A stretch of 50,189 bases of DNA from an uncultured Candidatus Saccharibacteria bacterium. GTDB taxonomy: Bacteria > Patescibacteriota > Minisyncoccia > Phycocordibacterales > UBA2100. The translations under genes and the position numbers were made by a program. Each line of letters starts with the position of its first letter. Position 1 is the first letter of the stretch. The DNA lies in assembly GCA_964419595.1 (NCBI GenBank), contig CAYQQI010000001.1:1-50189 (forward strand). The letters run 5' to 3'. The notes below the pieces were generated by a model that saw only the letters and a list, made by a program, of their open reading frames with translations, was not told the DNA's origin and ran no database searches. Below are positions 8,245 to 37,142 of the stretch, piece by piece.

Positions 8245-8300
8245 GTGAATGTTGCTTCGTTTGAAGTCCTCAAATACCCCTCGTGCTAAACTCGATTGCA

Positions 8301-10556: not shown

Positions 10557-10564
10557 GGCCACCA

Positions 10565-13581: not shown

Positions 13582-14859
13582 TTAATAGCTGTATCTGCCG
13601 CTCTTCCGAATGGCGGGGAGTTCCTGCGTATACTGAGCGAATTTAGAGATGCACAACTCCTTCGCGTCAGCATGCATGCATGCATTCTCTGAGGGGGCGA
13701 CATCAAGTCCGTCGTAAGAAAAGAACGAGTAGAAACAGGAATCCTGAAGCGTTTCGGAGCGTATTGCTGTGCAGTATGTAAGTGCTGTGCCCGGTCGTCC
13801 GTAACTTCTCAGTATCCGAACGTGACCGTGGGCACAACTCTCTCTATCGGTCTCATTCGGTAGCTCTGCGCATATGCTCACAAGTCCTTCGGTTGTGGTG
13901 CCGGTCTGTTCCACGTAAAAAGGGAGGAATCTTCCAATGCCCTCGAAGCAATACGCTCGCTCCGGCATACCGAATGTCTCGCATGCTTGAGTCGCGATGC
14001 GCAATTTCTCCGCACGCTCTGTAATATTCTTTCTTGCGAACAATATCTCTTGGTAGGGGGGGAGGTACTTGAAGCACGGATGCCGGTACCGTTTTTCATC
14101 AGGGGCGATCGTATTACAGGGATACCCGTAATCATCGTCAGGAACGTCTGCCAATGACGGAACGGACTCACTCAATACCAAACTATTTGGCACGCCGCCG
14201 ATGCCTTGCATATAGACGCCGGTCACGCATTGGTCAAGCATTTCACCGGTCGCAATCGACCCGCAGCTTTGCGTGGCCGCTTTAAAGTTGCCGGTCAAAG
14301 AATAGAGAATGTGACCGATACCGTGACAGAGCTCCGTATTGGCAATACCCAGGCAGAATTTCCCCGCGACCGCCTCGATCTGTTCCGTATCCATATGCGC
14401 GATATCGACCTCGTCGACGCGTATACCGAGCCGCTCTACCATGACTTCGCCCAAAGCTCCGTGTAAACAACCGCCAAAGCATTGGTTGCTGCAGCGGGAC
14501 AGTGCGTGCTCGAGGTTCGGATCAACACGATATGTTTCCTGCCCGATAACATGTGCAACGCTGTGACAGTCACCATAGGGCTTCGGCATGGACCTCGAAC
14601 TTACGTCGTTCAACAGTTCGCTCGCGGTGCGATTTTCGAGCGCAGACCGGACGATTTCATGTGTGCAGGCGATGAGTTCTGATGAGCCCTGCGAGTCCTC
14701 TGCACAGCTTTGCAATCCGGTCGTAAAGTTTCGTTCCATGCCTCGAGCACGGTATGAGTCCAGCTCTCCGATACAGAGGATGGCGAACGATACCAGCAGG
14801 CACGCGATGAATATCCGGACCGGGATGCTCCACGCACGAGGATGAAGGGGGAGACTCAT
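13582..14859 (-). CDS. membrane-anchored Cys/His-rich repeat protein (copy 2)
   Basis: The TM anchor is VRIFIACLLVSFAILCIG. Motifs include CHSVAHVIGQ, CFGGCLHGA, CHGIGHILY, QCVTGVYMQ and YCFEGIG. ATG 14859 was chosen; GTG 14865 is an alternative. Confidence 0.75.
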   Translation of the reverse strand: MSLPLHPRAWSIPVRIFIACLLVSFAILCIGELDSYRARGMERNFTTGLQSCAEDSQGSSELIACTHEIVRSALENRTASELLNDVSSRSMPKPYGDCHSVAHVIGQETYRVDPNLEHALSRCSNQCFGGCLHGALGEVMVERLGIRVDEVDIAHMDTEQIEAVAGKFCLGIANTELCHGIGHILYSLTGNFKAATQSCGSIATGEMLDQCVTGVYMQGIGGVPNSLVLSESVPSLADVPDDDYGYPCNTIAPDEKRYRHPCFKYLPPYQEILFARKNITERAEKLRIATQACETFGMPERAYCFEGIGRFLPFYVEQTGTTTEGLVSICAELPNETDRESCAHGHVRILRSYGRPGTALTYCTAIRSETLQDSCFYSFFSYDGLDVAPSENACMHADAKELCISKFAQYTQELPAIRKSGRYSY

Positions 14860-14870
14860 ACACACCGATG

Positions 14871-15617
14871 TTAATCCTCAGCAACGTTCCCGGCATGAAT
14901 CGATGTGTCCTTACAAAGCGTTATCGTGTGAATCGATTGTTCGTTCTCCTCGTCGAGATCAAGGAGTTCCGCAATGACCGCATCGTCGAATCCGGCATAG
15001 GGGCGAACATTCAACCGGAGCGCACTTCCCACCAGCAGCATGTTTTCACTCATGTGTCCGGCCTCAAGCAGCGTATGGATATAGGACAACTCACCGTACT
15101 TTGCAGATGAGCGCTTCCATACGCCGGTGAAAACGATCAGCCCGGACAGTGACAACCACTCCGGGTGTCTGGCGATACTTTTCATGTCGAATTGCGGCGG
15201 GAGGTCCCACAAGCGCTCGAGCGCGTGTTTCGAGGGATTATAGTGGAACACCGCAGGACTTTGCGATTCCACCGCGTTTGATATCAGGTATGACTCAACC
15301 GGATAGAGTGCTCCGCCGGAAGGATAGTTTCTATTCGTCACACCGTCGCGTTTTCGAAGTGCAGAGCCGAAGAGTGTGCCGAGTTCCCGAAGTGAGATAG
15401 CGATGCCGGCATCGCCTTCGTGTCCGGAGATCCGGCTATCCAGTGCCTCCTGAAGTGTTGTTGTGAGTACATCCGGCTGCGGGAGCGAGATGCATTGCAT
15501 ACGAGGATATGCTTTGTGGACCCCTCGCGGGACCTCTTCCGGTCGGTGGGTTGCACCTTTTCTGGTGAGGCGAGTGCGCCGCAACTCCATATGCAAGCGG
15601 GATAAAAAAGAGCTCAT
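14871..15617 (-). CDS. SagB-type dehydrogenase (nitroreductase fold), pair 1
   Basis: YPSGGALYPVESYL, FHYNPSKHALERLW, SAKYGELSY (Lys-Tyr motif) and LLEAGHMSENMLL are present. Its ATG overlaps the YcaO stop (ATGA at 15617..15614). Confidence 0.85.
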   Translation of the reverse strand: MSSFLSRLHMELRRTRLTRKGATHRPEEVPRGVHKAYPRMQCISLPQPDVLTTTLQEALDSRISGHEGDAGIAISLRELGTLFGSALRKRDGVTNRNYPSGGALYPVESYLISNAVESQSPAVFHYNPSKHALERLWDLPPQFDMKSIARHPEWLSLSGLIVFTGVWKRSSAKYGELSYIHTLLEAGHMSENMLLVGSALRLNVRPYAGFDDAVIAELLDLDEENEQSIHTITLCKDTSIHAGNVAED

Positions 15618-17053
15618 GAGAACGGGTGCGGACTCTCCGCGAACGGTTCTTTCCGTGGCGTATAACCCAGCGCTCGCGGCACCTCGTGCCAGCGCTCTCC
15701 GCCGAATTGCCGGCTGGCTTCGTTGAGGTACGTTGGAACCATCTCCGGCACAATGACCATTTCAATATGAAGATCCGTCGGGTTTTTCGCAGAATGGGTC
15801 AGGGGGACCGAAACAACATTGAAATGCTTCGTGCGACACCACTGCACGATGCGTTCAAGATTCTCCTCTATCGTATCGTTTTCCCACTCTTTCGCTTCGA
15901 CCTCTATCTCCGGACCCTGCACCAGAAATTCAAGACGCTTGGCGTTCTCAGGTTCTCCCCAGTAGTACAGACGCTCCCGGTGTCCGATCGTCTCGATTGG
16001 TGTGGTCGTATCCCATGATTTTCCTTCATTCTCCCAGATGTGGTAGCTGCGAAACGCACGTATAGATTCGCACATCGCTTTCTCTATTGCAGTCGGCAGT
16101 GAGCGGTGAGCACGGATACCAAAACTAAACCGCGGACTCTTCCCGCTCATGTCCTCGAGTACGACTGCTACCGCGTGCGTCGGTGCGTCGGTTTGAAGCC
16201 GGATGACATGCGGTTTCAGTCTGTATCGTTCGCACTGTGACACTGCCCGGCCAAGTGACGGGTTCAACCTTCTCAGCGTATCGAGTGCAATGCGGGGAAG
16301 CGTGAGTTGATTCAGCCACATGATCATATAGGCTTCTCGTTCGATCACTTCCAGGATGCCGGCAAGCCGCGCGCCGCACTGCGTTGGCCACGTAGCCAGA
16401 CCGTTTGTATTTTGTTGCCGAATGATCGGTTCATTCGGTGCACACATGTGACGCCGACTGATACCGCTCACAATTTGGGCAGGAACGAATGTGTTTTCGC
16501 TGTGCGTGAGCGAAATGCCTTGGACCCACAGATACGCTGCGTCGGGTCGCAATATTCGTGCAGCGTGCCTCGTTCGCTGCGCTTCCGTGAAACCGGTGAT
16601 ATTTTCCGGGGCGATGGATGGGCCTATGGCCGTAATTTCCCGGTACGTGGCAATTGTCGGGTTTACGAAATAGTCGTTCTGCGTCATCCAAATGTAGCGC
16701 TCGAGTGCCTCCGAAGTAGCGGCATACAACGCGTTCTCGTCACTTTCCCAGGTCGTGCCTCCGGTCTGGTGTGCGGTATGTTCATTGCACAGGGCATACC
16801 AGGCTTTCGTCGGCGGCTCGTCCGGGGCGCGGTATACCCGTCCGAATTCCGAAATTACCCCGTGGTCTTTGAGAAGCTGTGCGCGCTGAAGGGGCTCCAG
16901 TAGGTCGGACCGACCGTAGGGAATGGTGCGGGAGTCCTTTACTACCCGCACGTCCAATCTTTTCTCTATATGGTCCGTAAAAGCCCGCAGGGCTCTTTCT
17001 TTAATATTCGAGCCGTTGAGTAGTTCAGTGAACCGTACGGCATCAAAAATCAT
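15614..17053 (-). CDS. YcaO-family cyclodehydratase-like protein, pair 1
   Basis: Trimmed to MIFDAVRF. SEALERYIW, TNGLATWPT and LEVIEREAYMIMWLN are YcaO hallmarks. The C-terminus is ...ESPHPFS. Confidence 0.85.
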   Translation of the reverse strand: MIFDAVRFTELLNGSNIKERALRAFTDHIEKRLDVRVVKDSRTIPYGRSDLLEPLQRAQLLKDHGVISEFGRVYRAPDEPPTKAWYALCNEHTAHQTGGTTWESDENALYAATSEALERYIWMTQNDYFVNPTIATYREITAIGPSIAPENITGFTEAQRTRHAARILRPDAAYLWVQGISLTHSENTFVPAQIVSGISRRHMCAPNEPIIRQQNTNGLATWPTQCGARLAGILEVIEREAYMIMWLNQLTLPRIALDTLRRLNPSLGRAVSQCERYRLKPHVIRLQTDAPTHAVAVVLEDMSGKSPRFSFGIRAHRSLPTAIEKAMCESIRAFRSYHIWENEGKSWDTTTPIETIGHRERLYYWGEPENAKRLEFLVQGPEIEVEAKEWENDTIEENLERIVQWCRTKHFNVVSVPLTHSAKNPTDLHIEMVIVPEMVPTYLNEASRQFGGERWHEVPRALGYTPRKEPFAESPHPFS

Positions 17054-17166
17054 TGGTGAATCATAGCAAAACACGAGTTCTTTCCACAAGCCGAGGCAAG
17101 TTATCCCACGTGCCGTGGGGCGCACTATATAAATGCGGTGGTATCATTTACCTCATATTTTCCTCT

Positions 17167-25593: not shown

Positions 25594-26901
25594 TCAGGAC
25601 GAGAACGGATTCGCAAAATAATTTTGAACCGGATACCCGATGATCTCAGGACCGTCGGCAGGCAATTTTATCCACCGATTGTGCGAAAACGGTTCGTAGG
25701 AGAGCACGCACGCGTTTGCAGTATCAACGATACGATAGAACGGACCGCCGTCTATAGAATGGTCAAACGTCCATTCGACTCGTTCGATCACGGGATGCCG
25801 CATGCACGCTTCGTGAATATGGTACCAAAATTCGTACGGATCGCACCGCTCTTGTGCGGCAGGAGACTCGATCGTATCGGCTATCACGGAGCCGTCGCGC
25901 ATATGGGTCCGGGTATTCGACACACACTGGTGGTTCGCTTCGAACATGAACAGACCGTACATATTTCCCTCGAGTGTCATACGATGATCGCCCGGTATCA
26001 ACAGGGGGATACTTTGCGGGATCAAGAGCACAGCGAGAAACGTCCATCCCGCCACAGACTTGCGATCGAGCGGCACCGCGCTGTACCGGTATCCGACAGC
26101 GAACAGAACGACGAGTGCGGTGAGTGCGATAGAAGGAAAACGGAAGCCGACAAAGATACCCGAATAGAGGTGAAATGTCGCGAAAAAGACGAGTGCGCCG
26201 AGACGGAGTCGATTGTCAGAAGAAAGGAGGAACCACGAACCGATCATCTGCATGAATATCACGACGCCCGTAAATATCGGCGCCACGCTGTTTCCGAATA
26301 TCGGCAATCCCGCGGAGAGGGAGGTAAAATATGTTCCCATGATCCAACCTGCATCGATCTTCACGCTGCTTGCGAGGAAGTAGAGCCACACGAACGTGAT
26401 CCGAAGGAAAGCGAGCTTGTGCGGGAACAAAAGCAGCACCGAACCGAGGTACAGGTCGTAGTAGCTGTAATTTTCGGCGAAGTGCATGGAGAACAGAAAT
26501 ACGGTCGCCGCTTTGCATATCCATAAGAGGAGCAGTAATACATGCGCAAGCACCCACTCTTTTTTATACATGAGCACCGCAACCAAGAGGCACAACAGAA
26601 AGATCCCCATCGAGAGTATCTGTTGGCTGTAGGCATCGGGGAATGTCCCGAGGACATAGAATTTCCAGCAGCTCTGAAAATACGGCCAGCACAGGTGAAC
26701 ATTTTCCGTGACGGCACGGGGCGACGTTATGGCAAACAATGCGAATCGCTGAAAACCGAGAAAGAACGAGAAAAGAATGACGCCGAAGACGATCTTAAGC
26801 GTTTCGTTCTGCTCGATCTCAGCGATCGAAAAGAAACGTCGGTACCATTCGAGCACGCGACGCTCGATCACTGACGTAAATATATGATGACGAAACGGCA
26901 T
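25594..26901 (-). CDS. HTTM / vitamin K-dependent gamma-carboxylase-like membrane protein (copy 2)
   Basis: ASSVKIDAGWIMGTYF, YGLFMFEANHQC and WTFDHSIDGGPFYRIVD are present. It is collinear with 6820..8244. Confidence 0.6.
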   Translation of the reverse strand: MPFRHHIFTSVIERRVLEWYRRFFSIAEIEQNETLKIVFGVILFSFFLGFQRFALFAITSPRAVTENVHLCWPYFQSCWKFYVLGTFPDAYSQQILSMGIFLLCLLVAVLMYKKEWVLAHVLLLLLWICKAATVFLFSMHFAENYSYYDLYLGSVLLLFPHKLAFLRITFVWLYFLASSVKIDAGWIMGTYFTSLSAGLPIFGNSVAPIFTGVVIFMQMIGSWFLLSSDNRLRLGALVFFATFHLYSGIFVGFRFPSIALTALVVLFAVGYRYSAVPLDRKSVAGWTFLAVLLIPQSIPLLIPGDHRMTLEGNMYGLFMFEANHQCVSNTRTHMRDGSVIADTIESPAAQERCDPYEFWYHIHEACMRHPVIERVEWTFDHSIDGGPFYRIVDTANACVLSYEPFSHNRWIKLPADGPEIIGYPVQNYFANPFSS

Positions 26902-26906
26902 GGCGC

Positions 26907-28400
26907 TTAGGGGAACGGATGGGGGAGCGGATTCAGTGTATCAACCGCTTTATGGTGCAGCATTCTGAATTCATCGAGTCGTGCGGAGCGTAGTGTTGCA
27001 TACGACTCAACGAGATAAAGCGGGAAAAGTCGCGGGACGATCGTTCTCACCACGTGATACCCGAGCCGCATCAGGATCGGATGCTCCACATCGTACGTAT
27101 AGAGTTCGTATCCGGCCCCGAGCCTTCGGAGCTGCGTGCATACCCACGAGAGTTGTTCTTCTGGCGAGAGAATGTGCTCTGTTTTTTTGAACACCGACGC
27201 AGATGATCGTTTTGTTCCCCGAATGAAAAAAGAAAACGCATCCAACATACGTGCACCCTTCCACAGCGACAGGCGCTCGTTTCGGCCGATCGAGCGGTCA
27301 GAGAAGGGCGGAGCGCTCTGGTCGTGAATATACGGCTCTGCGCTCACCAGGCGCAACAGTGCGATATTTGCTTCGCTCAAGGCTCCGATGTACACGTCTT
27401 TTTCCGAGAAACCTGACCCGCCGCCGACGGCGAGTGCGGGCTCTCCTTCTCGCGCATCTATCAAAACACACATGACAGCCGGGATCTCCACGTTCGTTGT
27501 TATATCGAGAAAATGAACGGTGAGGCCGAGCCGCTCGTACCTATCGATCATGGCGCGTGTTTCGCTATCGCGGATCGACTCGTTCGGGATGCGATGGGGC
27601 GGAACCGAATTGAGCCAGTGCATAAAGAAACCGTCTCGTTCCACGAGTTCGAGCACGCCGGAAAGTATCGCTTCCGTTCTTGTGAAATGACCGGCACCGC
27701 CGCTCGTGGTCGATTGATACAGTGTCGGCTCAAGGGAGTCGAGTTCGTTACGGTACGACCAATAGACAAGTTGTGCCGGTAGGAGAGTCGGAGATCCCGT
27801 CCCGTATGCGCTCCCTTCCACCCACGCGAATTCGGAATCAATACTCCGTTTGAATTTTGGGAACGATTCCTCCTGCCACGGAGCGAAACCGTTGAGAGAG
27901 AAAATATCGAGCAGTGAATGCATGGTCGATAGGTCACGAGGTGTACCGTACGTAAGCGCTGCTTTGCGGTACAGCGTGAGCAGATGACGCTCGAGTATCT
28001 CACCGACTGACTTTGACATTGCATCCTCAAATGAAGCCGAGCTGCCATAGCCGGTATATTCCACCTTGCGCCCGTCGGTTTGTGACTCGTCCTCGTACGG
28101 CAGTACTCGTGCCGAGTACGTACCGGGAAAGTCGTTGCGTGCGAGCGGAAATGAAAATGAAGGGGTATCGATTATCTTTGCACGGTGCAGCTCATCGAGG
28201 AGGAGCTGCCAATTCAGCGGCATCCCCGTGGTGAGCACTGCTTCAGCGCCGCGAAAACGATCGAATCGATGCATGGTTTCGACGATACGCGCGCGCAGAC
28301 GGTCACGCGAGTCGAACAGCGACCGAAATCGCCCGCACGGTTGAGCAATTTCGTGCATCGCGTCGCCCTTTGATTGCAGACGAGTATGGGGATAGGGCAT
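26907..28400 (-). CDS. YcaO-family cyclodehydratase-like protein, pair 3 (divergent type)
   Basis: SVGEILERHLL, TTSGGAGHFT and VLELVERDGFFMHWLN are present, and the C-terminus is ...PLPHPFP (PxPxP-like). The ORF extends to 28754, but that would overlap the divergent SagB-3. Candidate starts are 28508, 28400 and 28358. Confidence 0.75.
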   Translation of the reverse strand: MPYPHTRLQSKGDAMHEIAQPCGRFRSLFDSRDRLRARIVETMHRFDRFRGAEAVLTTGMPLNWQLLLDELHRAKIIDTPSFSFPLARNDFPGTYSARVLPYEDESQTDGRKVEYTGYGSSASFEDAMSKSVGEILERHLLTLYRKAALTYGTPRDLSTMHSLLDIFSLNGFAPWQEESFPKFKRSIDSEFAWVEGSAYGTGSPTLLPAQLVYWSYRNELDSLEPTLYQSTTSGGAGHFTRTEAILSGVLELVERDGFFMHWLNSVPPHRIPNESIRDSETRAMIDRYERLGLTVHFLDITTNVEIPAVMCVLIDAREGEPALAVGGGSGFSEKDVYIGALSEANIALLRLVSAEPYIHDQSAPPFSDRSIGRNERLSLWKGARMLDAFSFFIRGTKRSSASVFKKTEHILSPEEQLSWVCTQLRRLGAGYELYTYDVEHPILMRLGYHVVRTIVPRLFPLYLVESYATLRSARLDEFRMLHHKAVDTLNPLPHPFP

Positions 28401-28506
28401 GCGCGCATGCACCGCATTCTTCCAATATCGATTCGGTTCCACGCGTGAAAGTATAGCAATATCGCTCGCTTGCGCCCGCAAAGGGGGAGAGTACCATTGA
28501 GCTTCC

Positions 28507-29235
28507 ATGGATTTTTCCGAGTTCTTCCACATCTCCTCAAAGGACGCCACGGGTGCGGGTGAACTTCGGATACCGCTTGATCCCAAAGAGTGGCCCGAAT
28601 CATGGAGCACGATAGAAACGAAAACATATACGCGTTTGCCGAAGATCTCTCTTCCCGAGACCGACCCGAAAGCGGACCACTTTGCGCTCATTCGTGATCG
28701 CAGATCCCGCTTTGCGTTCACGAGCGAACCGTTGACGCTAGAGGCAATGAGCACGTTGCTCAGGTATTCATGCGGTCTCTTTTTTCAAGACGATGTAGCC
28801 ACACACAGGGCGCAACCCTCCGCGGGCTCGAGGTATCCGATCGAACTCTATCCGATCGTACTTCGCGGGAACGATGCGCTCGCGTCCGGCGTGTACCATT
28901 ACAACGTTGATCATCATCGTCTTGAGCTGCTCTGGAGCCGCACATTTTCGCCGGAAGAGAAGCGGGCACTCGTAACGCACGAGAATATCGACGACGCCGC
29001 GTGTCTGCTCGTGATGAGTGCCACCTTCGATCGAACGAAACGTAAATACGGCGAGCGAGGATACCGATACATCATGCTTGAGGCGGGACATATCGGGCAG
29101 AATGTATGTTTGGCGGCAACCCACCTCAACCTCTCGTGCTGTCCGCTGGGAAATACACGCGACGGCGCTATTGAGACACTGCTGGATATCGACGGTGTGA
29201 ACGAGTCCGTGGTCTACGCAACGCTGATCGGGTAA
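28507..29235 (+). CDS. SagB-type dehydrogenase, pair 3
   Basis: GSRYPIELYPIVL, YHYNVDHHRLELLW, KRKYGERGYRYIMLEAGHIGQN and CCPLG are present. Confidence 0.8.
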   Translation: MDFSEFFHISSKDATGAGELRIPLDPKEWPESWSTIETKTYTRLPKISLPETDPKADHFALIRDRRSRFAFTSEPLTLEAMSTLLRYSCGLFFQDDVATHRAQPSAGSRYPIELYPIVLRGNDALASGVYHYNVDHHRLELLWSRTFSPEEKRALVTHENIDDAACLLVMSATFDRTKRKYGERGYRYIMLEAGHIGQNVCLAATHLNLSCCPLGNTRDGAIETLLDIDGVNESVVYATLIG

Positions 29236-29307: not shown

Positions 29308-29532
29308 ATGAGGAAACTTTTTTTCGCGAGCGCCGCAATCGCAATGCTCGGGATGCCGATCAGTGCTACCGCCCAGGTCAAGCAGATCTCGGGTCCGGGC
29401 GGCATGGTGTGCAACCACACCAACTCGTGCGCCTGCAAGCCATCGCTCAACGCGTGCGTCGCGTGCAACAACACCCACGGCCAGGAAGCCCAGCGCAATT
29501 GGTGCAAGATGACCAATCCGGCGCTGCGCTGA
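29308..29532 (+). CDS. secreted Cys-rich small peptide (74 aa; candidate precursor or bacteriocin-like)
   Basis: Trimmed to the ATG at 29308, preceded by GGAGGA plus 7 nt. The signal peptide is MRKLFFASAAIAMLGMPISATAQ. The mature part is VKQISGPGGMVCNHTNSCACKPSLNACVACNNTHGQEAQRNWCKMTNPALR (6 Cys). Confidence 0.6.
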   Translation: MRKLFFASAAIAMLGMPISATAQVKQISGPGGMVCNHTNSCACKPSLNACVACNNTHGQEAQRNWCKMTNPALR

Positions 29533-29620: not shown

Positions 29621-31273
29621 TCACGCGGATCTTTTCTTTTGAATACGGTAGATCTCATTGGCGAATGTCGGCAAAAATATTGCATGCGTCGTGGGGTTGT
29701 AGGCGATCACGTTCACGATGCGCTCCGCAGCCTGAAAAAAGCCTCTCTCTTCGCCGGTTTTCGCGTCAAGCTCATACATACGACCGTCATTGCTGCCGAT
29801 ATAGACCGACGAGCCGATTATTGCAGGGGATGCGAATATTCTTCCCATTGTCCTGAATTTCCATCGAATTATGCCGGTCGCCGCACCGATGGCGTAGAAC
29901 TTCTTATCGAGCGATGCCACGTATACCGTGCCCTCGTGTGCAAGCGGGTTCGAATACACCGCTTCGGGTAACTCCACCGCATGTACGAGCGCCCCGGTCT
30001 TTGCATTCAATATATAGAGATGTTTGTCGAACGAGCCAAAACAAACGGTACCGGCTGATTCGTCGAATGAGAAACCTGCACGAACCGCATCTTGTGTCGC
30101 GAATTCCCAGAGCTGGGATCCGGTTTTTGCGTCGAATCCGTACACGGTCCCGCTATTACTCCCGCACACCACAACTGAGAGTTTTTCCGAGACAGAAGGT
30201 GAGGAATGCACCAAGCCGTTCATGGTTTGCTGCCATACTTTTTTCCCGGTCTCGGCGTTCACCGCGAGCAATCCTCCCCGTTTATTCCACAGACCGAATT
30301 CCAGGCCCACGTACACGAGGCCGAACTTTTCCGATACTGCCGGTGATGAGCCGACCCAGTCGGCCTCCATACTTACCCAGGCACGGGAACCGTCACGCGT
30401 CTTCAGCGCGTACAAATTGCCGTCGTACGCACCGAAATACACGAGTCCGAGTTTCTTTGAGAGCGCAGGGGACGAGAAGATGCGCTTGTGCCCGTCACCG
30501 AATTGTATGAGGTATTTCCATACGACTTCGCCGCTTTCCTGATCGAGTGCCCAAAACATGCCGCTGTCCGACCCGAAGTAGAGCTTCGTGTCATCCAATA
30601 CAGGAGCAGATTTCGGGATCACATAAAAATAGTTCGGGTCGGGACTTGCGAATTTCCAGGTGCTCTCGAAGACTGACAGTTCTCCCACGGGTTTGGAAAC
30701 GGGGATGGGGGGATGTGCATCGGGAAAATCTTCTATCGAGAAAAGCGAGTGAACCTCGATCCCTTTTTCCCGGAACAGTTCGTAGAAAGAATCGTCTCTG
30801 AGACGAAGCACTACACAAATAGCACGCACCTCCATGCCGCGCTCTTCAAGTGCCGCGATCTGACGGAGCATGCCCTTACCGGAATTCACGAGATCGTCCA
30901 GTAGTACGACCGGCTCATCAGTAACGACTCCTTCGATCATGTTTTGCATTCCGTCCTTATCCCGGGATTTACGCATGAAAAAACCGTTCATGTTCGTGCC
31001 TGCATCGTGCGCTTTCAACACCACGCCCGCGATCAGGGGAAGCGACGCGGTTTCCAATCCGCCCACTTGAACCTTTCCGTACGGTGCCACGCGTGCGTAC
31101 ATCTCGATTGAGAGTGCGTCGAGCACATCGCTTTGTAACAGTACTCGTCGAAAGTCGAACATCCACGATTGCCGCTCACCCTCACCGGAGTAGAACGCGG
31201 CCTCCTTCGAAGTGACGAATACGCGCTCTTGCAATACCGACTTTAAGAACTGCATACGTGATGACGTTTCCAT
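29621..31273 (-). CDS. type I phosphoribosyltransferase::PQQ-like beta-propeller fusion (copy 2)
   Basis: Trimmed to METSSRMQFLK. MFDFRRVLLQ, FFMRKSRDKDG and the PRPP loop VVLLDDLVNSGKGM are followed by propeller repeats (LVYFGAYDGNLYALKTRDG...). Confidence 0.75.
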   Translation of the reverse strand: METSSRMQFLKSVLQERVFVTSKEAAFYSGEGERQSWMFDFRRVLLQSDVLDALSIEMYARVAPYGKVQVGGLETASLPLIAGVVLKAHDAGTNMNGFFMRKSRDKDGMQNMIEGVVTDEPVVLLDDLVNSGKGMLRQIAALEERGMEVRAICVVLRLRDDSFYELFREKGIEVHSLFSIEDFPDAHPPIPVSKPVGELSVFESTWKFASPDPNYFYVIPKSAPVLDDTKLYFGSDSGMFWALDQESGEVVWKYLIQFGDGHKRIFSSPALSKKLGLVYFGAYDGNLYALKTRDGSRAWVSMEADWVGSSPAVSEKFGLVYVGLEFGLWNKRGGLLAVNAETGKKVWQQTMNGLVHSSPSVSEKLSVVVCGSNSGTVYGFDAKTGSQLWEFATQDAVRAGFSFDESAGTVCFGSFDKHLYILNAKTGALVHAVELPEAVYSNPLAHEGTVYVASLDKKFYAIGAATGIIRWKFRTMGRIFASPAIIGSSVYIGSNDGRMYELDAKTGEERGFFQAAERIVNVIAYNPTTHAIFLPTFANEIYRIQKKRSA

Positions 31274-31337: not shown

Positions 31338-31766
31338 ATGAATCGCACCGTAGGTATCGTGCTCGCAGCTGTGCTCGTGACCGCACTTGCTATCTACCTG
31401 ACGCCGCTTAAGCATGTCGCACTCATTGAGCCCACGATCAACGACATCGATGCCGTGGAGTTCCAGGCAGCCCTTAAGGCGGATCCTGATCGCTACATCT
31501 TTCTTGATGTCAGGCCCGCAGAAGCGTACAACAAACAGCATGCCGAAGGTTCCGTGAGTGCACCCGTGCATACACTCTTCGATCTCCGCCACACGCTTCC
31601 GAAACACGGTAAGGAGATAGTGCTCATCTGTAGCGGGGGACGGGCCTCGGGCGTCGGGTACGGCTACCTCGAACATTTCGGTTTTTTCAACATTGCGCGT
31701 ATCGAAGGAGGCATTGAGGCGTGGCTCACGGCGGGGTTACCCACAGTGCCGGCGCCCGCAAAATAG
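31338..31766 (+). CDS. membrane-anchored rhodanese-domain sulfurtransferase-like protein
   Basis: Trimmed to MNRTVGIVLAAVLVTALAIY. IFLDVRPAEAYNKQHAEGS and the active-site loop LICSGGRASG are present. Confidence 0.7.
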   Translation: MNRTVGIVLAAVLVTALAIYLTPLKHVALIEPTINDIDAVEFQAALKADPDRYIFLDVRPAEAYNKQHAEGSVSAPVHTLFDLRHTLPKHGKEIVLICSGGRASGVGYGYLEHFGFFNIARIEGGIEAWLTAGLPTVPAPAK

Positions 31767-31792: not shown

Positions 31793-32077
31793 ATGGAGCA
31801 ACTGCTGTTTCGAACAATTCGCGTCGCATCGTTCCTCGGACTCGCCGCACTCGCTACACTTCTCACCATGTTTTTCGGTACCTCGCGCTCTGCGAGCAAT
31901 CTGTCCTCCGATGGAGGTTTTACGGGATTCGGCATTCAGTGCGCAAACGCCGATGCGCCGGTTGTTGACACGGGCTGCACCGGCGACGCCGGTTGCGCCG
32001 GTTGCGCCGGCTCAGATTCAGGTTGTTCAGGAGGATGTGACAGCGGCGGCGGCGGTAGCAGCGACGGCTGCGCGTGA
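31793..32077 (+). CDS. candidate RiPP precursor 2: Sec-like signal/anchor plus Cys/Gly/Ser/Asp-only core
   Basis: Trimmed from ORF 31721 to MEQLLFRTIRVASFLGLAALATLLTMFFGTSRSASNLSSDGGFTGFGIQCANADAPVVDTGCTGDAGCAGCAGSDSGCSGGCDSGGGGSSDGCA*. It shares the GG.xG(Y/F).I...A.AP...CTGDA junction with precursor 1. Confidence 0.6.
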   Translation: MEQLLFRTIRVASFLGLAALATLLTMFFGTSRSASNLSSDGGFTGFGIQCANADAPVVDTGCTGDAGCAGCAGSDSGCSGGCDSGGGGSSDGCA

Positions 32078-32084
32078 TTCTCAT

Positions 32085-33185
32085 ATGTCGAAATACATCA
32101 TCGGGGTAGTGATCATACTTGCGGCAGCATTTTTTGGCGTGTGGTACTACATATCCCTACCCCGACCTCTGCAGGATCCCTTCTCCACGCTCTCGATAAA
32201 AAGTGAGAAATTTGCCGAGGCAAATACACTTCATTTCTCCGCGAAGACCCCCGAAGATCAGGCCAAAACCGAGGCTGCATACAAAGCGGCACTCCTCGAC
32301 GCTGATTCTTCGGCCGAGAAGAGTATGGTTGAATTTCGGATCGCTCTGACCGTTGAGCAGCAAGGTAGGTATGTCGAGGCCATTCAACAGCTCAAAATGA
32401 TCGCGGCGAACACTCAGTATCCCGCATTTACACGTGCCTACGCGATACAGGAACTGGGTCTCATGTACTACAATTACGGTTCCCCGGAGATCACAAAAGA
32501 AGTGTTCAGTACACCACCGTACGACGCAATGCAGGCGGAGAGCGGCGCGGTGTCATATCGCCACGTCTTTGAATATGCCTCGTCGATCTATCCGCTCGCT
32601 GCTTCCGAGAGCTTTATTGCGTATTTATATGCAAACGACATGATGAAGCTGTTTAACGCTTCGACTGTTCGACCGCTCACGCCCGAAGAGCAAACTTCGT
32701 ATGAGAGCGCGAAACTCGAGGTTGAAAGGCGACTGGCGAGCGCGGAGCGTGATATCGCGCGACTCGATAAAATGGCGCAAGAGCGATACTACCGTTCGTA
32801 CGCACTCCTGCGCGTTGCCATCGTGCGCGGGCAATTGGCCAGGATGAAGCTTGGTACCGATGAAGCGGCAGAAGCTGCCTTCCAAAAGACCATCGCGATC
32901 ACCGACTACGAAAGCGGCGACGCCGAATCAGCGTTCCCGCGTTTGCACTACGCCTTTTTCCTCTCCAAGCGATACGGTGCCGAGCGAGCGACGGAGATCC
33001 ATGATCTCTTGAGCGCAATTTATACGACGATGGACAAGCGAGCGTATTCCCCGATCATGAAATATTTTGAGGGTGAACGAAAGAGTGTCTACGGAGCAAA
33101 AGCGGATCTCGCGGCGCTCGCCAAAATAGACCCTCAGTTCAAAGTTGCACTCATAAACCTCGGTTGGATAGAGAGCGACTTCTAG
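32085..33185 (+). CDS. membrane-anchored helical protein following precursor 2 (paralog of 17498..18610)
   Basis: Trimmed from ORF 31911 to MSKYIIGVVIILAAAFFGVWYY. It occupies the same position relative to its precursor as 17498..18610. Confidence 0.65.
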   Translation: MSKYIIGVVIILAAAFFGVWYYISLPRPLQDPFSTLSIKSEKFAEANTLHFSAKTPEDQAKTEAAYKAALLDADSSAEKSMVEFRIALTVEQQGRYVEAIQQLKMIAANTQYPAFTRAYAIQELGLMYYNYGSPEITKEVFSTPPYDAMQAESGAVSYRHVFEYASSIYPLAASESFIAYLYANDMMKLFNASTVRPLTPEEQTSYESAKLEVERRLASAERDIARLDKMAQERYYRSYALLRVAIVRGQLARMKLGTDEAAEAAFQKTIAITDYESGDAESAFPRLHYAFFLSKRYGAERATEIHDLLSAIYTTMDKRAYSPIMKYFEGERKSVYGAKADLAALAKIDPQFKVALINLGWIESDF

Positions 33186-33186
33186 C

Positions 33187-33864
33187 ATGAAGGAAGGCAC
33201 GAGGCGGCGTTGGCCCCGAAATGCGGTGCGAACCGGTTTGTTTCTGTTCACGATTGCGATACTGGTGTTCGCAGCGATGTACGTGCGCGGAACCGGCACG
33301 GAAACTGTTGCAGGAGGGCCGGTGCCGCCGATCGTTCCCGGGGATCATATACAAGGCGAACGCACGGCACCGGTGCAGTTGATCGTGTACACCGATATGG
33401 AGTGTCCGCATTGCAAAGCGCTGCATCTCTCCACCATTCCGCGCCTCCTGTCTGAATTCGGGACATCGACGTACGTGATCGCATACCGCCACTTTCCGCT
33501 CGCGTCGCATCTGCGCGCGCCACTTGAAGCGGCTGCGACCGAATGTGCGGCGAGATATGGCGAAAAGTATTTCTGGCTCTACGTTGAGCAGATATTCAGA
33601 GAAACAAAGTCCAACGACGCGCTCGAGCCGGCACGCTTACCGGAGATCGCCGATGAACTGGGTCTCCCGAAAAGTGCGTTCGAGCGCTGCCTGGAGCGAC
33701 CGGATCGGATGGAGCGTGTGCTGCACGATATTTCCGAGGCACTTCGAGCAGATGTAGCCATAACCCCGACTATATTTGTAGGTCGCGGTAATGAGATGAT
33801 ACGGGTAAAGGGAAATTCGTACGCGCAGCTTTCGAGCGCGACGGAGCTTCTCTTGTCCGAGTAA
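33187..33864 (+). CDS. DsbA-like thiol:disulfide oxidoreductase (thioredoxin fold, CPHC)
   Basis: It has an N-terminal TM helix. LIVYTDMECPHCKALH is the active site, and the C-terminal part is DsbA-like (ITPTIFVG). Confidence 0.75.
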   Translation: MKEGTRRRWPRNAVRTGLFLFTIAILVFAAMYVRGTGTETVAGGPVPPIVPGDHIQGERTAPVQLIVYTDMECPHCKALHLSTIPRLLSEFGTSTYVIAYRHFPLASHLRAPLEAAATECAARYGEKYFWLYVEQIFRETKSNDALEPARLPEIADELGLPKSAFERCLERPDRMERVLHDISEALRADVAITPTIFVGRGNEMIRVKGNSYAQLSSATELLLSE

Positions 33865-33868
33865 CCGT

Positions 33869-34669
33869 ATGCATGTCCGATCTACACGACGCTTCGTCTT
33901 TTCCGCATCAGTACTGGCGGTCGGCGTACTGTGCCTGGGGTATGTTGCATGGCCGCATCTCGTTCAATTAGGAGAGCGGGCTATATTCTCGATGTATCCG
34001 GAAGCAGAGCGGGCATATTCATACGGCGAGCGTCATTTCGATGGGAGGTACCCGCGTGCGTACAACATTCGTGTTGCGCACTATTATTTTTCCGAGGCAC
34101 TCAAACTGAACCCGGACATGCCGCTCGTCAAACACCAACTCGCCCGAGTCGCATTTCTGGAAAATAAGCTCTATCTCGCGCTCGAATTGATCAATCAAGA
34201 AATACGGGACAACCCATCTCCGAGTCCGTCCTCCTACTATATACGCGGACTCATTCTGGGCTACCTCGAAGAGTTCGATAGCGCCGCAGAGTCGTATCGC
34301 GTGTACGTGGATTCGGCCCCACCGAACTGGGCAGGGTTCACCGACTATGCGTGGGTGCTCTCGATGGCGGGTCGATACGAAGATACGCTTGACATTACAA
34401 GTAGAGGCTTGATGTATTTTCCCGAGAATCCGTGGCTCTTGAATACCCGTGCAAGCGCGCTCGCGGAGCTCGGACGCTATGAAGAGGCACTCGATGCGGT
34501 GTCGCGCGCCAAGGAATACGCAACCGCTATCACGGAAGAAGCGTGGTCTACGTACTATCCCGGCAATGACCCGCGTATCGCGCAAACCGGCATCAAAACC
34601 TTTCGCGATTCCATCGACTCCAATTTCCACATGATATCGCTTGAAAGGGACAAGCAGGCAAAACAGTAG
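33869..34669 (+). CDS. membrane-anchored TPR-repeat protein (copy 3)
   Basis: KHQLARVAFLENKLYLALELINQEIRDNPS, YYIRGLILGY and FTDYAWVLSMAGRYEDTL align with copies 1 and 2. Confidence 0.75.
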   Translation: MHVRSTRRFVFSASVLAVGVLCLGYVAWPHLVQLGERAIFSMYPEAERAYSYGERHFDGRYPRAYNIRVAHYYFSEALKLNPDMPLVKHQLARVAFLENKLYLALELINQEIRDNPSPSPSSYYIRGLILGYLEEFDSAAESYRVYVDSAPPNWAGFTDYAWVLSMAGRYEDTLDITSRGLMYFPENPWLLNTRASALAELGRYEEALDAVSRAKEYATAITEEAWSTYYPGNDPRIAQTGIKTFRDSIDSNFHMISLERDKQAKQ

Positions 34670-36412: not shown

Positions 36413-36441
36413 TTTGCCTTTTGCTTTTGCTTCTGTATACT
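36413..36441 (+). promoter_or_regulatory. candidate promoter for the rplC operon (TTTGCC-17-TATACT)
   Basis: The hexamers have 17-nt spacing and lie about 80 nt upstream of the rplC ATG. The -35 is weak. Confidence 0.3.
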
Positions 36442-36487
36442 GCCTCAACCCAAGTCCGCATATGGACCAATGGCAGGCACCGAGTGG

Positions 36488-36514
36488 GGCCCGCTATGGC
36501 GGGTCAATTTTTTT
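36488..36514 (+). promoter_or_regulatory. leader hairpin plus T7 run upstream of rplC (candidate attenuator)
   Basis: The sequence is GGCCCGC-tatg-GCGGGTC followed by AATTTTTTT. It ends 8 nt before the rplC ATG. Confidence 0.3.
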
Positions 36515-36521
36515 GAAAACT

Positions 36522-37142
36522 ATGGCTGGTAAATTCATGCTCGGAACCAAGGGCAAAATGACACAGGTCTTCGACGAGAAGGGTGTTGTTTCTGCTGCAA
36601 CGGTGGTAAATGCAGGTCCGATGACCGTCACCCAGGTAAAGGGTAAGGAGAAAGACGGCTACGATGCCGTGCAGCTCGGCATGGGCACCCGTGCAGCAAA
36701 GAACCTCGGAAAGGCGGTCGTGGGCCACTTGAAGGATCTCCCGCAGGCTCGTTTTATTCGTGAGAACCGACAGGAAGCAGGAGAAATGAAGCGCGGCGAT
36801 ACTATCGACCTCTCCATCTTTACTCCCGGTGATATTGTGGAGGTTTCTGCCATTTCCAAAGGTAAGGGTTTCCAGGGAGTGGTGAAGCGACACGGATTCT
36901 CCGGCGGTCCTCGCTCACACGGACAGAAGAACAAAGAACGAGCACCGGGCTCTATCGGCGGAGGCGGTCGTGCAGGCGGACGAGTGGTAAAGGGTATGCG
37001 CATGGCCGGACGCATGGGCGGCGATCGCGTTACCGTAACGAATCTGCGCGTATTGCAGGTAGACGTAGCAAACAATCAGATCCTCATTTCAGGTGCGGTT
37101 CCCGGACGACCGGGCACACTTGTCGAAATACGTTCAAAGTAA
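36522..37142 (+). CDS. rplC: 50S ribosomal protein L3 (uL3)
   Basis: Trimmed to MAGKFMLGTKGKMTQVFDEKG. ...KGKGFQGVVKRHGFSGGPRSHG... is a canonical L3 motif. Confidence 0.97.
   Translation: MAGKFMLGTKGKMTQVFDEKGVVSAATVVNAGPMTVTQVKGKEKDGYDAVQLGMGTRAAKNLGKAVVGHLKDLPQARFIRENRQEAGEMKRGDTIDLSIFTPGDIVEVSAISKGKGFQGVVKRHGFSGGPRSHGQKNKERAPGSIGGGGRAGGRVVKGMRMAGRMGGDRVTVTNLRVLQVDVANNQILISGAVPGRPGTLVEIRSK

What the first reader, a model, noticed from the sequence alone, without database searches (positions are those of the whole stretch)
31793..32077. Candidate precursor 2: homolog of precursor 1 with 8 Cys and a textbook Sec-type signal peptide
This 94-aa ORF reads MEQLLFRTIRVASFLGLAALATLLTMFFGTSRSAS|NLSSDGGFTGFGIQCANADAPVVDTGCTGDAGCAGCAGSDSGCSGGCDSGGGGSSDGCA.

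The n-, h- and c-regions with SAS resemble a cleavable signal peptide.

The region GG.xG(Y/F).I....A.AP...CTGDA aligns with precursor 1 (GGQPGYTIHGIDVAHAEAPACTGDA). Both genes share an identical 14-nt string, TGCACCGGCGACGC, encoding CTGDA. This looks like a conserved recognition or junction element just ahead of the variable Cys/Gly/Ser/Asp core.

The DNA contains a short tandem repeat, GCCGGTTGC GCCGGTTGC.

The gene is 14 kb from precursor 1 in a second, syntenic module. It follows a rhodanese gene and precedes a paralogous membrane protein.
Basis: seen in the sequence. Interest (0 to 1): 0.85.

Follow-up and report, generated by a model that had tools for sequence, protein, structure and literature searches.

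The report
Membrane-anchored precursor of azole peptide
This small gene is real and belongs to an unannotated family from tiny uncultured (CPR/Patescibacteria) bacteria: a membrane-inserting N-terminus, a conserved junction, and a hypervariable acidic Gly/Ser/Cys tail that here is probably turned into a thiazole-containing exported peptide by neighbouring YcaO/SagB enzymes.

Summary
The 94-aa ORF at 31793..32077 is real, but it has 7 Cys, not 8. With its low-complexity tail removed, it scores E=5e-10 against an HMM of syntenic ORFs from other Patescibacteria, so it is a true family member. I collected 57 members. All share a basic N-terminus, a TM helix, a ~26-aa linker and an [A/V]-x-A|[D/E]-[A/V]-P junction. 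A hypervariable Gly/Ser/Asp/Glu/Cys tail follows (0-10 Cys).

The family is unannotated (no Pfam or NCBIfam hit). Its usual neighbours are a PRTase-beta-propeller fusion, a rhodanese, a TM/helical protein, a DsbA-like protein (CPHC) and TPR proteins. About half the loci also carry TOMM-type YcaO plus SagB. This window has three such pairs.

Tail Cys count tracks YcaO presence (>=2 Cys in 20/24 versus 3/21 loci, p=4e-6). The best reading (confidence ~0.55) is a Sec-exported azole (LAP/TOMM-type) precursor. That is a new variant, because signal-peptide RiPP precursors are otherwise known only for MNIO systems. The main rival is an exported disulfide- or metal-binding acidic peptide that YcaO does not touch. 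YcaO/nitroreductase (LAP) clusters in CPR genomes have been reported before (Sharrar 2020).

The parts
31793..32077 (+). P2 coding sequence (94 aa plus stop). Type-2 member of the signal-anchored small-protein family with a hypervariable tail.
31793..31822 (+). Basic N-region (M1-R10, with R7 and R10), predicted cytoplasmic.
   Evidence: Positive-inside statistics: the N-flank is net positive in 57/57 members, mean +3.8.
31823..31879 (+). Hydrophobic segment V11-G29 (19 aa): signal anchor or h-region.
   Evidence: Hydropathy scan. Aligned TM segment in A4.
31880..31942 (+). Linker T30-C50.
   Evidence: Alignments. The linker varies in length and sequence across the family.
31943..31960 (+). 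Conserved junction A51-N52-A53|D54-A55-P56 (family motif [A/V]-x-A|[D/E]-[A/V]-P).
   Evidence: A53 is the only invariant column of alignment A4. Position frequencies over 57 members: -3 A41/V13, +1 D46/E11, +3 P34. Sixteen of the 17 members found by synteny alone carry the motif.
31952..32074 (+). Hypervariable acidic core or tail D54-A94 (41 aa). It has 6 Cys (C62, 68, 71, 78, 82, 93), all preceded by Gly, plus 6 Ser, 6 Asp and no basic residue.
31976..31989 (+). 14-nt string shared with P1 (at 17350..17363), encoding C62-T63-G64-D65-A66.
   Evidence: P(identical codons given the same peptide) is about 0.02.
31988..32005 (+). Tandem 9-mer GCCGGTTGC x2 encoding AGCAGC (a Cys-Xaa-Xaa repeat, CxxC). 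The same peptide AGCAGCAGSGDG occurs in the orthologues L032 and L035.
31338..31766 (+). TM-anchored rhodanese immediately upstream (probable start at M43 of the ORF that opens at 31212). The active-site loop CSGGRAS is present.
   Evidence: PF00581, E=1e-13. The orthologue in L003 is 57% identical.
32085..33185 (+). Mem_2, 366 aa, with an N-terminal TM and no family hit. It starts 7 nt after the P2 stop and has no conserved catalytic-type residues.
33187..33864 (+). TM-anchored DsbA-like thioredoxin-fold protein with a CPHC motif.
   Evidence: PF13462, E=1e-17. Sequence.
33869..34669 (+). TPR protein of the module.
29621..31273 (-). PRTase-PQQ-like beta-propeller fusion (PRTPQQ_2), divergent from the rhodanese-P2 operon.
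28507..29235 (+). SagB-family dehydrogenase 2.
   Evidence: TIGR03605, 133 bits against a cutoff of 78.
26907..28400 (-). YcaO_2, a TOMM/SagD-type cyclodehydratase. The real start is probably M119 of the 615-aa ORF. The C-terminus is PLPHPFP.
   Evidence: PF02624, E=7e-50. TIGR03604, 178 bits, full-length match but below the 219 cutoff. Orthologues align only from residue 112-119.
23363..24799 (-). YcaO_3, a paralogue of the type-1 YcaO_1. It has no adjacent family-type small ORF and may be a second enzyme acting on P2.
22626..23366 (-). SagB-family dehydrogenase 3. Its probable start overlaps the YcaO_3 stop.
17167..17478 (+). P1, 103 aa, a type-1 family member with junction A55-H56-A57|E58-A59-P60 and 4 Cys. 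It is divergent from and adjacent to YcaO_1 (15614..17125, minus strand).

Best explanation
P2 is a genuine protein-coding gene. It belongs to a conserved, unannotated Patescibacteria family of small type-II (N-in, C-out) signal-anchored proteins. These carry a conserved A-x-A|D-A-P junction followed by a hypervariable acidic Gly/Ser/Cys tail. In this organism the tail is most likely a ribosomal precursor core for azole formation.

Proposed mechanism. Shown: gene order, homology and residue statistics. Inferred: all chemistry and export steps.
1. P2 is co-transcribed with the rhodanese, Mem_2, DsbA-like and TPR genes. The gaps between neighbouring genes from the rhodanese to the TPR gene are 1-26 nt.
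2. Before or during targeting, the cytoplasmic ATP-dependent YcaO cyclodehydratase converts Gly-Cys (and possibly Ser) units of the tail to thiazolines. The enzyme would be YcaO_2 and/or the orphan type-1 paralogue YcaO_3. The SagB-type FMN dehydrogenase then oxidises the thiazolines to thiazoles.
3. The basic N-region and the 19-residue hydrophobic segment drive Sec/YidC-type insertion, with the acidic tail outside the cell.
4. The tail is either released by cleavage at the conserved A51-N52-A53|D54 site or stays tethered by the anchor. The site fits the signal-peptidase-I -3/-1 rule, but its spacing from the membrane segment is atypical.
5. Outside the cell, the remaining thiols are handled by the TM-anchored DsbA-like (CPHC) protein and the rhodanese, and the peptide interacts with Mem_2 and the TPR proteins.

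The product would be a small, strongly anionic, Gly-rich thiazole peptide. If cut at A53|D54 it is 41 aa, 3442.17 Da unmodified and 3322.01 Da with six thiazoles. The conserved chromosomal slot makes a cell-surface or metal/redox-handling role more likely than a classical bacteriocin role.
For: Real gene and family member. The head-only leave-one-out HMM gives E=4.7e-10 with 0/1000 shuffles reaching the score. A syntenic ORF lies upstream of the Mem homologue in essentially every locus with enough sequence. The census finds 20 database proteins, all named 'hypothetical'.

Enzymes. Both YcaO_2 and YcaO_1 match TIGR03604 (TOMM SagD) end to end, with E about 1e-50. Both have ExxER and a Pro-rich C-terminus (PHPFP and PHPFS). 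The SagB proteins score above the TIGR03605 cutoff.

Association. YcaO lies within 200 bp of the small ORF in 13 loci (mean 4.85 tail Cys) and within 0.2-5 kb in 11 loci (mean 2.18). It is absent from the held DNA in 21 loci (mean 0.71). Tails have >=2 Cys in 20/24 loci with YcaO and in 3/21 without (Fisher p=4e-6). The association also holds inside the type-2 subfamily (MWU p=0.006).

P2 itself. It has the most Cys of any type-2 member. All 6 tail Cys are Gly-preceded (p=0.0007). It has a Cys-Xaa-Xaa repeat. Its core start, CTGD, is shared with type-1 cores that sit directly beside YcaO.

No competing substrate. The only other small Cys-rich ORF near SagB_2 (29308..29532) is not conserved in any other locus.

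Topology. The N-flank is net positive in 57/57 members and the tail averages -8.8 charge.

Precedent. Bufferins are heterocycle-bearing RiPPs exported by Sec (PMC11626156). LAP clusters have been reported in CPR genomes (PMC7298704).
Against: No chemistry has been observed.

The family also exists without YcaO on the held DNA, in 21 of 45 loci, with Cys-free poly-Asp, poly-Gly or (GE)n tails. The ancestral function therefore does not need heterocycles.

Three members near a YcaO have no tail Cys (L036, L072 and P0010).

The G-C bias also occurs in YcaO-less tails.

No E1-like, Ocin-ThiF or RRE partner was found among about 40 neighbouring proteins scanned.

The YcaO scores fall below the curated TIGR03604 cutoff.

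P2 is 3 kb from YcaO_2 and in a different transcription unit.

Modifying a signal-anchored substrate requires the enzymes to act before translocation.

The conserved AxA site is 24 residues from the membrane segment, which is atypical for signal peptidase I.

The association statistics are not phylogenetically corrected. Most loci were ascertained through the PRTase-propeller gene. 'No YcaO' means none on a partial contig.
Confidence: 0.55

Rival explanations
1. P2 is an exported or surface-tethered acidic low-complexity peptide. Its Cys residues act as thiols or disulfides, for metal binding or redox, handled by the adjacent DsbA-like and rhodanese proteins. It is not a YcaO substrate. The YcaO/SagB pairs act on something else or are only loosely linked.
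For: The family persists without YcaO in 21/45 loci, with 0-2 Cys. Forty-three of 57 tails keep at least one Cys. In 20 tails the last Cys lies within 2 residues of the C-terminus, often as C-x(5-9)-C or CxxC, including in YcaO-less loci. A TM-anchored CPHC DsbA-like protein and a TM-anchored rhodanese are in the same operon. The conserved rpsJ-rplC location suggests a housekeeping envelope function. No RRE or E1 partner was detected.
Against: It does not explain why tail Cys count rises from 0.7 to 2.2 to 4.9 as YcaO gets closer. It does not explain the classic divergent precursor-YcaO arrangement of type-1 members. It does not explain why no other conserved small ORF exists for three YcaO/SagB pairs in a small genome.
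Confidence: 0.28
2. P2 is a YcaO substrate, but the modification is backbone thioamidation or amidine/macrocycle chemistry rather than azole formation. The neighbouring rhodanese would serve as sulfur relay.
For: The YcaOs also hit TIGR03266 (McrA-glycine thioamidation), E=4e-15. The closest solved sequence is the M. jannaschii thioamidating YcaO 6pe3 (E=6e-9). A rhodanese is adjacent, and the tails are Gly-rich.
Against: The match to the TOMM SagD model is far stronger (E about 1e-52 versus 1e-15). A SagB-type azoline dehydrogenase is paired with every one of the three YcaOs. No TfuA was found. The rhodanese is predicted to face outside the cell, and it also occurs in YcaO-less loci.
Confidence: 0.07
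3. The ORF is not a real gene. It would be a chance ORF in GC-rich sequence, or the region would belong to a longer N-terminal extension of Mem_2 (alternative ORF 31911..33185).
For: An overlapping ORF in another frame runs from 31911 into Mem_2. Automated gene callers started Mem inside the P2 tail. The direct homologue search with P2 returned only itself. No Shine-Dalgarno sequence is obvious upstream.
Against: The head plus junction is conserved in frame with a low-complexity tail in 57 homologues across many MAGs. Mem homologues start at the TM helix that corresponds to 32085.
Confidence: 0.02

Closest known systems
Linear azol(in)e-containing peptide (LAP/TOMM) precursors, e.g. McbA of microcin B17, and the antiSMASH-detected LAP clusters in CPR genomes (Sharrar et al. 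2020, PMC7298704)
   Same: A small precursor gene sits next to a YcaO cyclodehydratase and a SagB/McbC-type FMN dehydrogenase. The C-terminal core is rich in Gly, Ser and Cys, with Gly-Cys units. The core is hypervariable while the N-terminal part is conserved. YcaO plus nitroreductase clusters were already reported in 93 CPR genomes.
   Different: The 'leader' is a basic N-region plus a 19-aa membrane segment, not a soluble leader. The core is strongly acidic. No E1-like or Ocin-ThiF partner or RRE was detected. No dedicated ABC exporter or leader protease was found. The constant partners are a PRTase-beta-propeller fusion, a rhodanese, a DsbA-like protein and TPR proteins. The same small-protein family also occurs without YcaO. 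The chromosomal location between rpsJ and rplC is conserved.
Heterocycloanthracin/sonorensin-type TOMM precursors (Cys-Xaa-Xaa repeat bacteriocins; recalled from the literature, TIGR03601)
   Same: Tandem Cys-Xaa-Xaa units occur in the core: AGCAGC in P2, GCGGCGGC in L013 and CGGGCGGGCGGG in L094. Repeat number varies between strains.
   Different: P1 and P2 have no NCBIfam hit to that or any other family. The leader type and the taxon differ.
Bufferins/oxazolins (BufA precursors modified by MNIO/DUF692 enzymes; PMC11626156, PMC12452194)
   Same: The precursor carries an N-terminal Sec-type signal instead of a classical leader. Cys-derived heterocycles would be installed in the cytoplasm before export. 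Disulfide formation follows outside the cell. A metal-binding function is plausible.
   Different: The enzyme class differs entirely: YcaO/SagB here, against MNIO plus DUF2063 for bufferins. No DUF692 or DUF2063 gene was found among about 40 proteins scanned. Bufferins fold as small proteins, whereas these tails are low-complexity. Here the conserved AxA site lies far from the membrane segment.

Membership tests
TOMM/LAP biosynthetic system | YcaO-domain cyclodehydratase of the azoline-forming (SagD) type | tested here: inconclusive
   PF02624 E=7e-50 and 1.5e-43. TIGR03604 is matched over positions 1-377 of 377, but at 178 and 171 bits, below the curated 219 cutoff. ExxER and the Pro-rich C-terminus are visible in alignment A5. 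The significance of those two motifs is recalled from the literature and was not tested here.
TOMM/LAP biosynthetic system | FMN-dependent SagB/McbC-type azoline dehydrogenase | tested here: met
   TIGR03605 scores 133.4 and 106.2 bits against a cutoff of 78.4. A third copy is at 22626..23366.
TOMM/LAP biosynthetic system | E1-like (C protein) or Ocin-ThiF-like partner, or a fused RRE domain that binds the leader | tested here: not met
   None of about 40 neighbouring proteins has a ThiF, E1, cyclo_dehyd or PqqD/RRE family hit. The YcaOs have only a ~120-aa N-terminal region with no family hit. Its AF2 model was unusable (pLDDT 38), so a cryptic RRE cannot be excluded.
TOMM/LAP precursor peptide | Small ORF adjacent to the enzymes, with a conserved N-terminal part and a variable Cys/Ser/Thr-rich core | tested here: met
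   P1 is divergent from and adjacent to YcaO_1. P2 is 3 kb from YcaO_2. Heads are conserved (HMM) and tails are hypervariable. Tail Cys content correlates with YcaO presence.
TOMM/LAP precursor peptide | Azol(in)e heterocycles actually present in the product | not testable with these tools
   This needs mass spectrometry. Predicted masses are given.
Cleavable Sec (SPase I) signal peptide | Positively charged n-region, hydrophobic h-region, and small residues at -3/-1 a few residues after the h-region | tested here: inconclusive
The n-region is positive in 57/57 members. The h-region is 17-20 aa, which is anchor-like. A at -1 is invariant and -3 is A/V in 54/57, but the site lies a median 26 aa after the hydrophobic segment. 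No signal-peptide predictor was available.
Bufferin/MNIO-modified RiPPs | MNIO (DUF692) enzyme plus a DUF2063-type partner next to the precursor | tested here: not met
   No such Pfam hit among the module proteins.
Known curated precursor families (Pfam, NCBIfam) | Profile match of the small protein | tested here: not met
   P1 and P2 have no Pfam or NCBIfam hit. All 20 database relatives are 'hypothetical protein' with no Pfam domain.

The most novel reading that the evidence does not exclude
This would be the first YcaO-dependent RiPP family whose precursors use a Sec-type signal anchor instead of a soluble leader. It would be part of a Patescibacteria-wide, vertically inherited envelope system lodged between rpsJ and rplC. 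In that system a signal-anchored, hypervariable anionic peptide is the common hub. Its constant partners are a PRTase-beta-propeller protein, a rhodanese, a DsbA-like protein and TPR proteins. YcaO/SagB modules have been plugged in repeatedly to convert Cys-enriched versions of the tail into azole peptides displayed or released at the cell surface of these epibiotic bacteria.
Probability: 0.35. Interest if true: 0.8.

Novelty: new variant of a known kind. Interest (0 to 1): 0.62.

Why it matters
CPR/Patescibacteria have tiny genomes and depend on hosts, yet this organism spends about 30 kb on three YcaO/SagB pairs and two copies of this small protein. The region lies in a conserved slot between two normally adjacent ribosomal protein genes.

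If the tails are azole-modified and Sec-exported, signal-peptide-guided RiPP export would extend from MNIO systems (bufferins) to the large YcaO class. That would define a precursor family that genome-mining tools currently miss, because it has no Pfam or NCBIfam model.

It would also give a concrete, testable candidate for a surface or secreted molecule involved in CPR-host interaction or in metal/redox handling. The natural series of tails, from Cys-free poly-Asp/Gly to ten Cys, with and without YcaO, is a ready-made comparative experiment on how a RiPP pathway is recruited onto a pre-existing exported peptide.

Tried and rejected
1. A direct homologue search with P2 returned only itself. 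BLASTP of P2 against the syntenic Kaiserbacteria ORF found nothing. Homology became visible only with neighbourhood-anchored collection and head-only HMMs.

2. An AlphaFold2 model of YcaO_2, built from a 3-sequence alignment to look for an N-terminal RRE, gave mean pLDDT 38 and was discarded. No fold search was run.

3. I considered the small secreted Cys-rich ORF 29308..29532, directly after SagB_2, as the true substrate. I rejected it as the conserved substrate because it has no counterpart in any other locus.

4. I considered Mem_2 as a leader protease. Thirty-nine homologues share no conserved His, Asp, Glu, Ser or Cys.

5. The 615-aa YcaO_2 ORF, which suggested a large fused N-terminal domain, was rejected. 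The first ~83 codons are antisense to SagB_2, and orthologues align only from residue ~112-119.

6. The 14-nt identity as evidence by itself: given the shared peptide, identical codons have p of about 0.02. That is suggestive of local sequence exchange but not decisive.

7. The G-before-Cys bias as specific evidence for cyclodehydratase substrates: it is also present in YcaO-less tails.

8. A lipobox or type IV prepilin reading of the N-terminus: no conserved L-x-x-C or G|F-x-x-x-E motif appears in the alignment.

9. Literature searches for YcaO with signal-peptide precursors, or for PRTase-propeller partners, found nothing relevant.
Full report
OBSERVATION

The ORF at 31793..32077 (+) exists exactly as quoted: ATG start, 94 codons plus stop.
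- It has 7 Cys, not 8. One (C50) lies before the conserved junction and six lie after it.
- The 14-mer TGCACCGGCGACGC occurs only at 31976 and at 17350, inside 'precursor 1' (P1, 17167..17478, 103 aa, 4 Cys). Shuffles predict 0.07 matches.
- The tandem GCCGGTTGC x2 is at 31988 and encodes AGCAGC.
- Upstream is a rhodanese (PF00581). Downstream, 7 nt after the stop, is a 366-aa TM protein that is weakly paralogous (E=1e-5) to the one after P1.

NEIGHBOURHOOD

Both modules contain the following:
- a TOMM/SagD-type YcaO (PF02624; TIGR03604 matched end to end but below its cutoff);
- a SagB-family dehydrogenase (TIGR03605, above its cutoff);
- a phosphoribosyltransferase-PQQ-like beta-propeller fusion;
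- TPR proteins.

Module 2 also has a TM-anchored DsbA-like protein with a CPHC motif. A third YcaO/SagB pair, closely paralogous to the module-1 pair, lies at 22626..24799 with no small ORF of this family beside it.

The annotated 615-aa YcaO_2 ORF is too long. Orthologues align only from residue ~112-119, and the first ~83 codons are antisense to SagB_2. The gene is probably 26907..28400.

The whole ~31-kb region lies between ribosomal protein genes S10 (5097..5459) and L3 (36414..). The same placement is seen in 19 other loci, five of which show both flanks.

IS P2 A REAL HOMOLOGUE OF P1, AND DO OTHER LOCI HAVE IT?

A direct search with P2 found only itself. I therefore collected loci through the neighbours.
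- The membrane protein led to a Candidatus Kaiserbacteria contig with the same gene order and a 102-aa ORF in the same slot.
- The PRTase-propeller fusion gave 20 genome loci and 80 metagenome loci. Nearly all are Patescibacteria.

In almost every locus with enough sequence, the ORF immediately upstream of each membrane-protein homologue has the same architecture: a basic N-terminus, a 17-20-aa hydrophobic segment, a linker, an [A/V]-x-A-[D/E]-[A/V]-P block, and then a Gly/Ser/Asp/Glu/Cys low-complexity tail of 20-81 aa.

With the tail removed, P2 scores 25.8 bits (E=4.7e-10) against an HMM built from the other heads. The best of 1000 shuffles reaches 13.7 bits. P1 versus P2 by BLASTP gives E=2e-4 in the non-repetitive block. 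Both of the finding's own refutation criteria therefore fail. The homology is real, and homologous loci have the ORF.

A census with a head-only profile found 20 proteins in 5.8 billion. All are 'hypothetical' and none has a Pfam domain. Four contexts looked up from that census are independent of the PRTase anchor:
- three again show PRTase-propeller with (rhodanese)-small ORF-Mem;
- two of those also have YcaO plus nitroreductase;
- the fourth belongs to a subfamily (MKKFFRL...) in a different context, with CapK-like adenylating enzymes.

ANATOMY AND CORRECTIONS

Across 57 members:
- position -1 is always Ala;
- position -3 is Ala or Val in 54;
- position +1 is Asp or Glu;
- position +3 is Pro in 34.

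The regex used for part of the collection forces -1 and +1. However, 16 of the 17 members found by synteny alone also have the motif.

In P2 the block is A51-N52-A53|D54-A55-P56. CTGD recurs only at the start of some Cys-rich cores (P1, P2, L013, L015).

The N-flank is net positive in 57/57 members (mean +3.8). The tails carry a mean charge of -8.8, so an N-in, tail-out topology is strongly predicted.

The block obeys the -3/-1 rule for signal peptidase I, but it lies a median 26 residues after the hydrophobic segment (24 in P2). Ordinary secreted proteins in this window have their AxA site 3-8 residues after it. 'Textbook signal peptide' is therefore too strong. This is a signal anchor with a conserved distal junction. 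Whether that junction is cut, and by what, is open.

P1 and P2 belong to different subfamilies. P2's head is type 2 (33.1 versus 10.5 bits) and P1's is type 1 (49.1 versus 11.1 bits). P2 thus combines a type-2 head with a Cys-rich core whose start resembles type-1 cores. An orphan type-1 YcaO/SagB pair sits about 7 kb away, so it may also act on P2 (inference).

Given the shared peptide, the four identical codons have a probability of about 0.02. That is compatible with local sequence exchange but is not proof.

LINK TO YcaO

Tails are hypervariable. Examples are poly-Asp (L098), poly-Gly (L092), (SD/SG)n (L022), (GE)n (L008), and 7-10 Cys (L013, L015, L025, L094). Close relatives with identical heads differ by repeat-unit indels in the tail (L057/L061, P0005/P0006).

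Tail Cys count tracks YcaO proximity:

| YcaO position relative to the small ORF | Loci | Mean tail Cys |
|---|---|---|
| within 200 bp | 13 | 4.85 |
| 0.2-5 kb (P2, with 6, is the highest) | 11 | 2.18 |
| none on the held DNA | 21 | 0.71 |

Tails have >=2 Cys in 20/24 loci with YcaO and in 3/21 without (Fisher p=4e-6). The trend holds within the type-2 subfamily (p=0.006).

Two further members that my composition filter missed (L065, L105) have 2 and 5 tail Cys and lie about 350 bp from a YcaO.

All six tail Cys of P2 follow Gly (p=0.0007). This G-C bias is family-wide and also appears in YcaO-less tails.

Caveats:
- the statistics are not phylogenetically corrected;
- contigs are partial;
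- most loci were ascertained through one anchor gene;
- a group of loci with a more distant YcaO (L078-L090) shows no detectable family member.

INTERPRETATION

The most economical reading is that an old Patescibacteria family of exported, anionic, low-complexity peptides has been recruited, in the Cys-enriched subset, as a substrate of azole-forming YcaO/SagB enzymes. The subset includes both copies here. P2 would then be a LAP/TOMM-type precursor whose 'leader' is a Sec-type signal anchor.

Heterocycles would have to be installed in the cytoplasm before translocation. This was shown experimentally for bufferins, the only RiPPs demonstrated to use Sec in their native host. The authors of that work call the feature highly unusual (PMC11626156, PMC12452194).

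The extracytoplasmic DsbA-like and rhodanese proteins would handle the remaining thiols.

Points against this reading:
- no E1, ThiF or RRE partner was found;
- the family exists without YcaO;
- the junction spacing is odd;
- P2 lies in a different transcription unit from YcaO_2.

The main rival is that the tail is a disulfide- or metal-binding surface peptide that YcaO does not touch. It is favoured by the recurrent C-terminal Cys, CxxC and C-x(5-9)-C patterns in YcaO-less members and by the housekeeping-like chromosomal slot. It leaves the Cys-YcaO gradient unexplained.

WHAT IS KNOWN

antiSMASH-type LAP clusters (YcaO plus nitroreductase, with a putative precursor next to YcaO) have been reported in 93 CPR genomes (Sharrar et al. 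2020, PMC7298704). The cluster class is therefore not new.

I found no description of the following:
- the precursor family itself, with its signal anchor and conserved A-x-A-D-A-P junction;
- its occurrence without YcaO;
- its fixed partners;
- its rpsJ-rplC location.

No profile database recognises the family.

VERDICT

P2 is a real gene, a correctly spotted homologue and a plausible precursor. It is a new variant of a known kind (LAP/TOMM precursors). It is of moderate to high interest because it would extend Sec-guided RiPP export to YcaO chemistry and it points to a conserved CPR envelope system.

Noticed in passing
window 5097..5459 (S10) and 36414..37142 (L3); loci L008, L024, L041, L097, L098 and 14 others: The whole ~31-kb region lies between rpsJ (S10) and rplC (L3), which are normally adjacent genes. 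It holds three YcaO/SagB pairs and two small-protein modules. The same placement recurs in 19 other Patescibacteria loci, five of which show both flanks 11-15 kb apart.
   Followed up: partly
window 22626..24799 (-): A third YcaO/SagB pair is closely paralogous to the module-1 pair but has no family-type small ORF next to it. It may act on P1 or P2. A 200-aa polytopic membrane protein (24880..25482) and the 435-aa polytopic protein (25594..26901) separate it from YcaO_2.
   Followed up: partly
window 11882..13516 (-), 29621..31273 (-); about 100 loci: A phosphoribosyltransferase domain fused to a PQQ/BamB-like beta-propeller is the most constant neighbour of the small-protein gene. The family has no described function. 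The DDxxNxG loop is invariant in 16 aligned sequences. Homologues in Acidobacteriota (L018-L021, L023) have none of the other module genes nearby.
   Followed up: partly
window 29308..29532 (+) and 18733..19053 (+); L003 5406..5690 and 5694..5957: Small secreted Cys-rich proteins with canonical signal peptides and 5-7 Cys are scattered in these clusters. The one after SagB_2 has no counterpart in other loci.
   Followed up: partly
window 13582..14865 (-), 20686..22026 (+), 5522..6697 (-); L003 2582..3757: Three paralogous ~390-450-aa proteins have an N-terminal TM segment and repeated Cys/His motifs (CHxxGH, HxxAH). They have no family hit and may be extracytoplasmic metal- or redox-related proteins.
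   Followed up: no
window 25594..26901 (-); L003 6192..7496: A 435-aa polytopic membrane protein with conserved Cys pairs (CWPYFQxC, ANHQC) is 48% identical between the window and the Kaiserbacteria MAG. It has no Pfam hit. In YcaO-less loci it directly abuts the PRTase-propeller gene. In the window, YcaO_2/SagB_2 are inserted between the two.
   Followed up: partly
L107 5945..6490: An Asp/Asn beta-hydroxylase (PF05118) gene sits between the nitroreductase and the PRTase-propeller genes, in a locus whose small protein has a Cys-free Asp/Ser/Gly tail. It may be a further tail modification.
   Followed up: no
window 8283..9668 (+), 10565..11872 (-), 9672..10565 (-); L109: CapK-like/AMP-binding adenylating enzyme paralogues and a PP-loop ATPase lie next to module 1. 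The adenylating enzymes recur in 17 loci. They flank the MKKFFRL... subfamily of the small protein, which lacks an adjacent PRTase-propeller gene.
   Followed up: partly
L026 10210..10611 (-): One family member ends two residues after the conserved junction (…TANAETVGK), so it has no tail. It is either a decayed copy or evidence that the head has a function of its own.
   Followed up: no
window 28506..28509: The long YcaO_2 ORF and SagB_2 would start back to back on a CATG palindrome. This is an artefact of ORF extension, and the real YcaO_2 start is about 106 bp further in.
   Followed up: yes
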